A model generated the notes under the pieces. It did not search any database and was not told where the DNA came from. It was given only the letters and a program-made list of their open reading frames with translations. Positions 7,887 through 7,921 of a stretch of 8,473 nucleotides of DNA are shown here, piece by piece. Numbering within the stretch: position 1 is the first letter of the stretch; each line of letters starts with the position of its first letter. This DNA comes from a virus. Its lineage: Duplodnaviria; Heunggongvirae; Uroviricota; Caudoviricetes. The translations under genes were made by a program, and so were the position numbers. The stretch spans positions 1 to 8,473 of the IMG/VR virus record IMGVR_UViG_2663762857_000030; one strand, given 5' to 3'.

Positions 7887-7921
7887 GTGACGGAGAGTGA
7901 CAACCAGTGACACGCCGTGAC
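7887..7921. repeat. Four GTGAC motifs at exact 10-bp periodicity (helically phased protein-binding array?)
   Basis: GTGAC at 7887, 7897, 7907 and 7917; the four 10-mers read ccGTGACgga / gaGTGACaac / caGTGACacg / ccGTGACaaa. Non-coding, just after the stop of the 93-aa gene. Confidence 0.5.

What the first reader, a model, noticed from the sequence alone, without database searches (positions are those of the whole stretch)
7887..7921. Four GTGAC motifs at exact 10-bp phasing
A strict 10-bp period puts all four motifs on one face of the helix, which is typical of arrays bound by a small DNA-binding protein (excisionase-like or Fis-like factors, or regulators next to an att site). It lies in the long non-coding stretch between the last element gene and the host junction.
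Basis: seen in the sequence. Interest (0 to 1): 0.45.

Follow-up and report, generated by a model that had tools for sequence, protein, structure and literature searches.

The report
Phage-origin-type repeats on a satellite island
Four GTGAC motifs spaced exactly one DNA turn apart sit at the end of an E. coli phage-satellite island, and they match the repeats found inside the replication-initiator genes of very common E. coli prophages; the island has no such gene, so it probably uses them to bind (and exploit or soak up) a helper phage's replication starter protein, though this is not yet shown.

Summary
GTGAC starts at 7887, 7897, 7907 and 7917 (+), with a degenerate fifth unit (GCGAC) at 7877. 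No shuffle of the window reproduces the pattern.

The window is an EcCICFT073-type phage-inducible chromosomal island (PICI) integrated in tqsA. The array lies between the last gene (93 aa) and a hairpin/AT-rich segment, 416 bp from the att core.

It is not the island's own origin, which is a separate TCTACC iteron set next to pri-rep. It is not the integrase arm site either: that is GGTGTAGTCA x2, present on both arms. An array-less island at the same site has 97%/98% identical Int/AlpA.

In IMG/VR the same pattern occurs in more than 119 contigs. In 98 of them it lies inside an ORF, always antisense, and most of these ORFs are phage replication-initiator or replisome-organizer genes. The repeats track the initiator's N-terminal domain. 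That domain occurs in prophages of 40% of complete E. coli genomes. The island has no such gene.

Best reading (about 0.4): a helper-type origin iteron array acting in trans, as a decoy or hitch-hiking origin like lactococcal PER. This is inferred, not shown. The array is accessory: at least 282 genomes carry it, against 1594 with the neighbouring gene.

The parts
7877..7921 (+). Phased array: a degenerate unit GCGAC (7877) followed by four GTGAC cores (7887, 7897, 7907, 7917), period exactly 10 bp, spacers unrelated to one another.
   Evidence: 0 of 200 shuffles reproduce the pattern. Related islands carry 3-5 units in the same phase.
7922..7965 (+). Conserved 3' flank AAAAGACGGT followed by a 68% A+T stretch. 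It contains the inverted repeat ACGGTT-T-AACCGT (7927-7939), which scores as terminator-like on both strands. This could be an unwinding region or a bidirectional terminator.
   Evidence: AAAAGACGGT is invariant in all 9 aligned islands, whereas the 5' flank of the array is of at least 4 unrelated kinds. A+T content; hairpins.
7589..7870 (+). Last island gene, 93 aa, unknown function (phrog_1561). The array begins 17 bp after its stop codon, so it is probably transcribed as the 3' end of the island's rightward operon.
   Evidence: Homologs are the last gene of islands at tqsA, phoQ, smrA, clpS and tRNA-Ile sites and occur in 1594 of 5426 genomes.
7976..7990 (+). Hairpin GACGTGACCAACGTC followed by a T-run (terminator-like, + strand). 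It contains an out-of-phase sixth GTGAC.

Best explanation
The array is a set of iterons of the type found in the origins of a large family of temperate-phage replication initiators (replisome organizers; phrog_3729/21423/15931/1408). In those phages, GTCAC cores spaced 10 bp apart lie inside the initiator's own gene, as lambda ori lies inside gene O.

The island carries the repeats but not the initiator, and it has its own unrelated Rep/ori. The array would therefore act in trans. When a lambdoid helper with this replication module is induced or infects, several initiator N-terminal domains would bind the 4-5 cores on one face of the helix. The outcome would resemble the 'phage-encoded resistance' (PER) seen when a phage origin is supplied in trans. 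Either the island recruits the helper's replication start machinery at the adjacent A+T-rich stretch (a hitch-hiking origin), or, once amplified by its own Rep, it titrates the initiator away from the helper (a decoy), or both.

What is shown:
- the array and its phase;
- conservation of the cores and the phase across island lineages;
- the link between the motif and phage initiator genes, specifically their N-terminal domain;
- the absence of such a gene from the island;
- the abundance of such prophages in E. coli.

What is inferred:
- that the initiator binds GTCAC;
- that it binds the island's copy;
- any effect on replication.
For: 2. In 98 of these loci the array lies wholly inside an ORF, and in all 98 the ORF is on the opposite strand.
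3. Of 77 distinct ORFs of at least 150 aa, 46 match phrog_3729/21423 and 36 match phrog_1408. These and the other top families are annotated replication initiation protein, replisome organizer or DnaD-like loader.
4. In E. coli phage Tritos, the only runs of at least 3 phased GTCAC in 46 kb are two clusters inside the replisome-organizer gene: gene positions 129-160 and 389-430.
5. Homologs found by protein similarity alone, Aeromonas pAEv1818 (57% identity) and Pseudomonas Marin (51%), have the same two clusters. Initiators that share only the C-terminal DnaT domain (Rac-SA53 YdaU, PPompW, Chris1) have none. The repeats therefore follow the N-terminal domain.
6. The 10-bp period is not a multiple of 3, so the repeat is a DNA-level feature and not a peptide repeat.
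7. Precedent: replisome organizers of TP901-1 and Tuc2009 bind direct repeats inside their own genes. These repeats are the origin, and they confer PER when supplied in trans (PMC8965321).
8. The island has no homolog of this initiator (hmmsearch of six-frame translations, best E about 1).
9. The island's own origin is elsewhere: 11 TCTACC/GGTAGA iterons at 3207-3428 flanking an A+T-rich stretch, immediately 3' of pri-rep. The E. coli 042 island has a different Rep and different iterons (AAGTGAGG) but the identical array.
10. The N-domain DNA of this initiator type is present in 2186 of 5426 complete E. coli genomes.
11. Among island variants the cores changed twice (GCGAC, GTGCC) against at least 8 spacer changes, and copy number varies from 3 to 5 by whole 10-bp units.
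Against: - No experiment shows that these initiators bind GTCAC. The link is by location and co-variation only, and I found no paper describing it.
- The first cluster in the phage genes overlaps conserved protein sequence (RNVT..GH..VT), so part of its conservation could be coding.
- Not every GTGAC array lies in an initiator gene. One family lies between the TerL and portal genes. Three arrays lie 100-500 bp upstream of integrase genes.
- The base before the core is A in 2 of the 4 island units, but in only 5% of phage units.
- The A+T-rich stretch lies on the opposite side of the array, relative to core orientation, compared with the second phage cluster.
- The array is absent from most related islands, so it is dispensable for the basic life cycle.
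- Co-occurrence with GTCAC-type prophages was not measured.
- Phage Tritos does not carry the lambda-type cosN that the island has.
Confidence: 0.4

Rival explanations
1. The array is an accessory recombination site. It would be bound by the island's AlpA/excisionase-like factor or by the integrase arm-binding domain, and would shape the attP/attR complex or control directionality.
For: - The array lies in the non-coding arm between the last gene and attR.
- Directionality factors typically bind phased direct repeats (established knowledge: lambda Xis, P2 Cox, TorI).
- The arm-type motif GGTGTAGTCAC contains GTCAC, and the minus strand of the array shares GTCACTGGT with it.
- All array-bearing islands examined use the same arm motif.
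- Three unrelated viral contigs have GTGAC arrays 100-500 bp upstream of an integrase gene.
Against: - The arm sites are already accounted for by a 23-bp block on both arms, about 85 bp from the core. There is no GTGAC array on the int-proximal arm.
- The array is 416 bp from the core, and its distance to the arm sites varies from about 350 to about 500 bp.
- An island at the same tqsA site with 97% identical Int and 98% identical AlpA lacks the array, as do islands at phoQ and clpS with the same arm motif.
Confidence: 0.12
2. The array is a binding site for another island-encoded or host protein, with a local regulatory role. Examples: the adjacent 93-aa protein, PerC, or an OmpR/PhoB-type response regulator. 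It could act as a roadblock or 3'-end control where the rightward operon meets a convergent leftward small ORF.
For: - The array sits directly after the stop codon of the 93-aa gene and before hairpins that score as terminators on both strands.
- The minus strand reads TGTCAC x3, which resembles the TGTCA core of Pho boxes (own knowledge).
- The conserved unit includes the non-repeat flank AAAAGACGGT.
Against: - The 93-aa gene is in 1594 genomes and the array in at least 282. In Shigella-type islands, 250 bp of other modules separate the two.
- Pho boxes have an 11-bp period and A+T-rich spacers; here the period is 10 bp and the spacers are G+C-rich.
- This reading does not explain why the same core and period recur in initiator genes of phages from unrelated hosts.
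- No Rfam family matches the region.
Confidence: 0.15
3. The array is a non-functional remnant: a piece of a phage origin captured by recombination, or a decaying tandem duplication. It would be carried along with the 3' end module of these mosaic islands.
For: - The distribution is patchy, and the array is cleanly absent from islands that keep the downstream module.
- One unit is already degenerate in the window (GCGAC) and another in strain VG35A2 (GTGCC).
- Island variants are all versions of one ancestral array, so conservation has limited depth.
Against: - The spacers are unrelated while the cores are identical. This is the opposite of what a neutrally decaying duplication would show.
- Substitutions favour spacers, at least 8 to 2.
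- Copy number changes by whole units, which keeps the phase.
- There is no flanking protein or DNA homology to phage initiator genes or to any phage record, so only the repeats themselves have been retained.
- The array persists with at least 4 different 5' flanks and at 3 or more integration sites.
Confidence: 0.13
4. The array is a packaging accessory site: extra recognition sites for the Rpp-TerS complex or for the helper terminase, associated with the nearby cos2 site.
For: - The array lies about 360 bp from cosN of cos2 (7513-7524, minus orientation).
- In one family of G+C-rich phages, GTGAC arrays lie between the TerL and portal genes.
Against: - In cos2's orientation the array is upstream of cosQ, on the side opposite to cosB, with a whole gene in between.
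- In EcCICFT073, cos function maps to cosQ-cosN-cosB fragments, and cos2 is dispensable (PMC6092414, PMC6739421).
- Capsid-forming islands with their own P27-type TerS and HNH, and no lambda-type cos module, can also carry or lack the array.
Confidence: 0.05

Closest known systems
Origin iterons embedded in phage initiator genes (lambda ori in gene O; direct repeats inside the replisome-organizer genes of lactococcal phages TP901-1 and Tuc2009)
   Same: Short direct repeats in helical phase. The same GTGAC/GTCAC core and 10-bp period occur in clusters of 3-5 units inside replication-initiator genes of E. coli, Aeromonas and Pseudomonas phages. An A+T-rich stretch lies next to the island's array.
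   Different: The island's array is non-coding, is a single cluster, and has no cognate initiator gene in cis. The orientation relative to the A+T-rich stretch is reversed. Binding of GTCAC by these initiators is itself only inferred.
PER (phage-encoded resistance): a cloned phage origin supplied in trans in Lactococcus
   Same: A phage-type origin repeat set is present on another replicon without the initiator. That replicon becomes multicopy during infection, which allows titration of the initiator and/or phage-driven replication (PMC8965321).
   Different: PER is a laboratory construct on a plasmid. Here the repeats are a natural part of a satellite island, and no resistance or replication phenotype has been measured.
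Canonical PICI/SaPI origin (two iteron sets flanking an A+T-rich region, immediately 3' of pri-rep)
   Same: It is an iteron array on a PICI.
   Different: The canonical origin of this island is at about 3198-3435, with TCTACC iterons. In the 042 island it has AAGTGAGG iterons. The GTGAC array lies 4.5 kb away at the att-distal end and is independent of Rep type.
Helper-mimicking cis sites of EcCICFT073-type PICIs (cos1/cos2 with lambda-like cosQ/cosN)
   Same: The logic is the same: a satellite carries a copy of a helper's cis-acting site in order to use a helper machine. This island has both cos sites (6744-6785 + and 7513-7554 -) and an Rpp-like gene.
   Different: The cos sites serve packaging and are experimentally established. 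The GTGAC array would serve replication-initiator binding and is not described in those papers.
Helper Rep-binding iterons carried by geminivirus DNA-B components and some satellites
   Same: A dependent replicon carries the helper's iterons so that the helper's initiator acts on it in trans (own knowledge; compare PMC10880892 as listed).
   Different: Those are eukaryotic ssDNA rolling-circle systems. The satellite there has no replication initiator of its own, whereas this island has one.

Membership tests
GTCAC-type phage replisome-organizer origin iterons | At least 3-4 direct repeats of the GTGAC/GTCAC core at 10(-11)-bp spacing | tested here: met
   The window has 4 perfect units plus 1 degenerate unit at exactly 10 bp. 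Phage clusters have spacing 10,10,11 and 10,10,11,10.
GTCAC-type phage replisome-organizer origin iterons | Located inside or next to the cognate initiator gene | tested here: not met
   No homolog of the initiator is present in the window or in the whole 042 island (hmmsearch, best E about 1). The array is intergenic.
GTCAC-type phage replisome-organizer origin iterons | Adjacent A+T-rich region that could unwind | tested here: inconclusive
   Positions 7922-7965 are 68% A+T. However, this stretch is on the opposite side, relative to core orientation, from the A+T-rich stretch after phage cluster II, and it also looks like a terminator.
GTCAC-type phage replisome-organizer origin iterons | Specific binding by the initiator's N-terminal domain | not testable with these tools
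   Only co-variation of the repeats with the N-terminal domain is available: 3 of 3 N-domain homologs have them, against 0 of 3 homologs sharing only the C-domain.
Canonical PICI origin | Immediately 3' of pri-rep; two iteron sets flanking an A+T-rich region; cognate to the island's Rep | tested here: not met
   That structure is at about 3198-3435, with TCTACC iterons. The same GTGAC array accompanies a different Rep/ori in E. coli 042.
Tyrosine-recombinase att accessory sites (arm-type or RDF sites) | Motif shared with the integrase arm sites, and present on the arms at a fixed short distance from the core | tested here: not met
   The arm sites are GGTGTAGTCA x2, about 85 bp from the core on both arms. 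The array is 416 bp from the core and at a variable distance (about 350 to about 500 bp) from the arm sites.
Tyrosine-recombinase att accessory sites (arm-type or RDF sites) | Present wherever the same Int/RDF pair is used | tested here: not met
   The WL1277 island at tqsA has Int 97% and AlpA 98% identical to the 042 island, and no array.
Lambda-type cos subsites (cosQ / cosB R elements) | Position within about 200 bp of cosN, on the cosB or cosQ side | tested here: not met
   cosN copies are at 6774-6785 (+) and 7513-7524 (-). The array is more than 360 bp away, beyond cosQ of cos2, with gene 7589-7870 in between.
matS (MatP site) | Palindrome GTGACRNYGTCAC | tested here: not met
   All units are direct repeats. 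There is no GTCAC on the + strand within the array; the only inverted copy in the region is at 8247.
OmpR/PhoB-type response-regulator boxes | Tandem TGTCA-type half-sites with an 11-bp period and A+T-rich 4-bp spacers (Pho box; own knowledge) | tested here: not met
   The period is exactly 10 bp and the spacers are G+C-rich (GGCG, TGGT, TCTCC on the minus strand).
Known RNA families (Rfam) | Covariance-model match | tested here: not met
   No match at E<=1 in 7300-8473 on either strand.

The most novel reading that the evidence does not exclude
A phage satellite (PICI) carries, besides its own replicon, a copy of the origin iterons of one of the commonest lambdoid replication modules in E. 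coli. It would use them in trans against or with its helper, as a natural PER-like decoy and/or a helper-fired second origin. This would extend satellite piracy from packaging sites (cos) to replication-initiator sites. It would also imply that the variable 3' non-coding end of these islands is a place where helper-specific cis sites are collected.
Probability: 0.35. Interest if true: 0.75.

Novelty: new variant of a known kind. Interest (0 to 1): 0.5.

Why it matters
If the reading is right, it adds a new layer to satellite-helper conflict in the best-studied Gram-negative PICI family: competition for, or theft of, the helper's replication initiator through a short cis element rather than a protein. 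It would also identify the likely origin iterons (GTCAC at 10-bp phase, two clusters inside the gene) of a replisome-organizer family present in prophages of about 40% of complete E. coli genomes. I found no published origin description for that family.

The hypothesis is directly testable by gel shift, by a plasmid PER assay, and by deleting the array in the island with helpers of different replication types. If it is wrong, the array is still a selected, phased protein-binding site of unknown partner in a medically relevant family of mobile islands.

Tried and rejected
- **Canonical island origin: rejected.** The pri-rep-adjacent origin uses TCTACC iterons. The 042 island, with another Rep and AAGTGAGG iterons, has the same array.
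- **Integrase arm sites: largely rejected**.
- **cos subsite: rejected on geometry**. The two inverted cos sites are the known cos1/cos2 of EcCICFT073-type islands.
- **Remnant of a phage initiator gene: rejected.** There is no protein homology around the array and no DNA homology of 7860-8335 to 50,697 phage records beyond one marginal 60-nt hit.
- **Known RNA: none**.
- **matS and Pho-box readings: considered and rejected** on symmetry, period and spacer composition.
- **Scan of genome contigs with the 93-aa protein:** gave only one locus (Shigella), so related islands were taken from E. coli genomes and IMG/VR instead.
- **Scan of IMG/VR for the 14-nt palindrome GCGCAAAATTGCGC** seen in related islands: returned only scattered single matches at about chance level and was uninformative.
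- **Literature searches** for GTGAC or GTCAC together with iterons found nothing. McGrath et al. 1999 on PER could not be opened.
- **Pfam, NCBIfam and PDB sequence searches** gave no name for the initiator N-terminal domain; only the C-terminal DnaT domain matched.
- **Co-occurrence** of array-bearing islands with GTCAC-type prophages could not be computed, because only a few rows per search are listed.
- **Structure prediction** of the initiator N-domain and of the 93-aa protein was not run. It would not decide binding specificity and would have needed a costly homolog search.

Full report
**Observation**

GTGAC occurs on the + strand at 7887, 7897, 7907 and 7917, exactly 10 bp apart. The pentamer itself is not over-represented in the window: 13 sites against 12.05 expected. 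The phased four-fold pattern occurs once and in none of 200 dinucleotide-preserving shuffles. A fifth unit in phase at 7877 reads GCGAC and is an intact GTGAC in related islands. The spacers (ATACC, GGAGA, AACCA, ACGCC) are unrelated. What is kept is the core and the helical phase, which is the signature of a protein-binding array and not of a recent duplication.

**Context**

The window is a phage-inducible chromosomal island (PICI) of the EcCICFT073 type, integrated in tqsA. Its right end is 99.3% identical to E. coli 042. It encodes:
- a D5-type primase-helicase (1436-3190), SSB and PerC;
- a lambda E-like capsid protein and a gpD-like decoration protein;
- a Nu1-like HTH protein of 144 aa (Rpp-like, 6875-7309);
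- a last gene of 93 aa, of unknown function (7589-7870).

Two complete lambda-type cos sites in inverted orientation flank the rpp-like gene: cosQ/cosN at 6744-6785 (+) and 7513-7554 (-). These are the published cos1 and cos2 of this island family (PMC6092414, PMC6739421).

The array starts 17 bp after the stop codon of the last gene. It is followed by an invariant AAAAGACGGT and a 68% A+T stretch with hairpins that score as terminators on both strands. The att core (ATAACAGCA) is at 8337-8345, 416 bp away.

**What the array is not**

- *Not the island's own origin.* As described for Gram-negative PICIs (PMC6092414), the origin lies just 3' of pri-rep. Here it consists of 11 TCTACC/GGTAGA iterons in two sets around an A+T-rich stretch at about 3198-3435. 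The 042 island has a different Rep (RepA-family helicase) and different iterons (AAGTGAGG), yet carries the same GTGAC array.
- *Not the integrase arm-type site.* A 23-bp block, CGGTGTAGTCACTGGTGTAGTCA, lies about 85 bp from the core on both attL (next to int) and attR (8241-8262). Islands at smrA and clpS have the same motif. The distance from the array to these sites varies from about 350 to about 500 bp.
- *Not required by Int/AlpA.* A capsid-forming PICI at the same tqsA site, in strain WL1277, has Int 97% and AlpA 98% identical to the 042 island but no array. It keeps the downstream AAAGACGGTTTAACC module.
- *Not a cos subsite*, on geometry.
- *Not a known RNA*.
- *Not a matS palindrome or a Pho box*, on symmetry, period and spacer composition.

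**Distribution among islands**

The 93-aa gene is the last gene of islands at tqsA, phoQ, smrA, clpS and tRNA-Ile and is found in 1594 of 5426 complete E. coli genomes. The array module is found in at least 282 genomes. It is therefore accessory.

Where the array is present, it has 3-5 units, always in 10-bp phase. Its 5' flank is of at least four unrelated kinds, and its 3' flank AAAAGACGGT is invariant. Among variants I counted two core changes (GCGAC, GTGCC) against at least eight spacer changes. Copy number changes by whole units. This suggests selection on the cores and the phase. The sample is small, and all variants descend from one ancestral array.

**The lead from other sequences**

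By my estimate a 20-base pattern should occur less than once by chance in that collection.

In 98 loci the array lies entirely inside an ORF, and in all 98 the ORF is on the opposite strand, so the sense strand reads GTCAC. Of 77 distinct ORFs of at least 150 aa, 46 match phrog_3729/21423 and 36 match phrog_1408. The other frequent families are likewise replication initiation protein, replisome organizer or DnaD-like loader. Because 10 is not a multiple of 3, the repeat is a DNA feature that drifts through the three reading frames (NVT / xCH / xSR).

Specific phages show the same picture:
- In E. coli phage Tritos, the only phased GTCAC runs in 46 kb are two clusters inside the replisome-organizer gene.
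- Homologs picked by protein similarity alone, in Aeromonas phage pAEv1818 (57% identity) and Pseudomonas phage Marin (51%), have the same two clusters.
- Initiators that share only the C-terminal DnaT-like domain (Rac-SA53 YdaU, PPompW, Chris1) have none.

The repeats therefore follow the N-terminal domain. In lambda O and in the lactococcal replisome organizers this is the origin-binding part, and those proteins bind repeats inside their own genes (lambda annotation; PMC8965321). I infer that GTCAC at 10-bp phase is the origin iteron of this initiator family. I found no paper that says so.

**Putting it together**

The island has the iteron-type array but no such initiator: hmmsearch of all six frames of the window and of the 042 island gave a best E of about 1. 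There is no flanking homology to phage genes or genomes. DNA for the N-terminal domain of this initiator type is present in prophages of 2186 of 5426 complete E. coli genomes, up to five copies per genome. Potential trans-acting partners are therefore abundant in the island's hosts.

The most economical mechanism is that the array binds a helper's or invader's replisome organizer in trans. In Lactococcus, a phage origin of this organisation supplied in trans gives the PER phenotype (PMC8965321). By analogy, the island could be fired by the helper's initiator at the adjacent A+T-rich stretch, could titrate the initiator once amplified by its own Rep, or both. This parallels the family's known use of helper-like cos sites.

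**Caveats**

- Binding is not shown for any member of the family.
- Cluster I in the phage genes overlaps conserved protein sequence.
- GTGAC arrays also occur in other settings. Two still point to replication: 120 bp upstream of a replisome organizer (L068) and just 3' of a primase-helicase (L110). Others do not: between the TerL and portal genes in a G+C-rich phage family, and 100-500 bp upstream of integrase genes in three contigs.
- Two island units have A before the core, which is rare (5%) in the phage arrays.
- The A+T-rich flank is on the other side relative to core orientation.
- Phage Tritos has a different cosN from the island, so a helper combining lambda-type cos with this replication module is assumed, not shown.
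- Co-occurrence was not measured.

I put the trans-iteron reading at about 0.4. The remainder is split among a local regulatory site for another protein, an att accessory site, a neutral remnant and a packaging role.

**Verdict**

The closest known things are origin iterons embedded in phage initiator genes and the PER effect of origins supplied in trans. The island's array meets the repeat and phase criterion, fails the 'next to its initiator' criterion, and cannot be tested for binding here. If the trans-iteron reading holds, this is a new variant of satellite piracy, and it also defines the likely origin of a very common E. coli prophage replication module. If it does not hold, the array remains a selected but accessory binding array of unknown partner.

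Noticed in passing
window 6744-6785 (+) and 7513-7554 (-): Two complete lambda-type cos sites (cosQ-like GGGTCCTTTCCGG / GGGTCCTTCCTGG plus cosN GGGCGGCGACCT) lie in inverted orientation, flanking the Nu1-like (Rpp-like) gene 6875-7309. They correspond to the published cos1/cos2 of EcCICFT073-type PICIs and are therefore already known.
   Followed up: yes
window 3198-3435: Canonical PICI origin immediately 3' of pri-rep. It has 11 copies of TCTACC/GGTAGA (consensus T[GAC]TCTACC) in two oppositely oriented sets around an A+T-rich stretch at about 3225-3260. The E. coli 042 island has AAGTGAGG iterons instead, next to a RepA-family helicase (L001 7500-7760), showing replicon swapping between islands that share the same right end.
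   Followed up: yes
window 8241-8262; L001 2040-2062 and 12841-12863: A tandem GGTGTAGTCA(C/T)T pair, within a 23-bp block that is identical on attL (26 bp upstream of the int start) and attR. These are probably the integrase arm-type sites. The same motif is present in islands at smrA and clpS, which have different core sites. The likely att core ATAACAGCA is at window 8337-8345.
   Followed up: partly
window 7996-8044 (-); L002 3650-3800; L003: A 13-codon ORF on the minus strand (MTIQTMTLIRTFR, 7996-8037) with a GGAG 8 nt upstream overlaps the palindrome GGTCATAATGACC (8032-8044). In the Shigella and WL1277 islands an extra ~100 bp makes this a longer, hydrophobic ORF (…MFVVVALMVCVVIMTIQPMTLIRIFR). 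It could be a small membrane peptide or toxin that is truncated in the window.
   Followed up: no
L002 3280-3530; L006 1783-2020; L008 1783-1950: In related islands, the space after the last gene (in front of or instead of the GTGAC array) holds several ~50-bp units: TAAC..TGATATTyyCGG followed by a short hairpin that differs from unit to unit. One hairpin (CCTCAAATTGAGG) resembles lambda ori iteron 3 (TCCCTCAAATTGGGGGA, L248). These could be further phage-type sites or may be unrelated. A scan for one of the palindromes was uninformative.
   Followed up: partly
L041 2500-2544 and 8 similar IMG/VR loci (L010, L021, L043, L077, L099, L103, L121, L124): In a family of G+C-rich HK97-like phage contigs, 4-8 GTGAC units at 10-bp phase lie in the short intergenic gap between the terminase large subunit and portal genes, not in a replication gene. 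Their function is unknown. No GTCAC-type initiator was seen within the stretches held.
   Followed up: partly
L054 3686-3720, L094 11700-11734, L095 5386-5420: In three unrelated viral contigs, GTGAC arrays lie 100-500 bp upstream of tyrosine integrase genes. This keeps an att-related use of such arrays possible in some elements.
   Followed up: no
L128 1507-2577 (Escherichia phage Tritos) and homologs: This replisome-organizer family has two GTCAC clusters about 260 bp apart within the gene. One lies in the N-terminal domain coding region. The other lies in the linker and is followed by GATAAAGATACA repeats. The N-domain DNA is present in 2186 of 5426 complete E. coli genomes. No Pfam, NCBIfam or PDB sequence match exists for the N-terminal domain.
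   Followed up: partly
window 7979-7983: A sixth GTGAC, 62 bp after the last phased unit and out of phase, sits in the stem of the terminator-like hairpin GACGTGACCAACGTC. In array-less islands this reads GACGTGGCCAACGTC.
   Followed up: no
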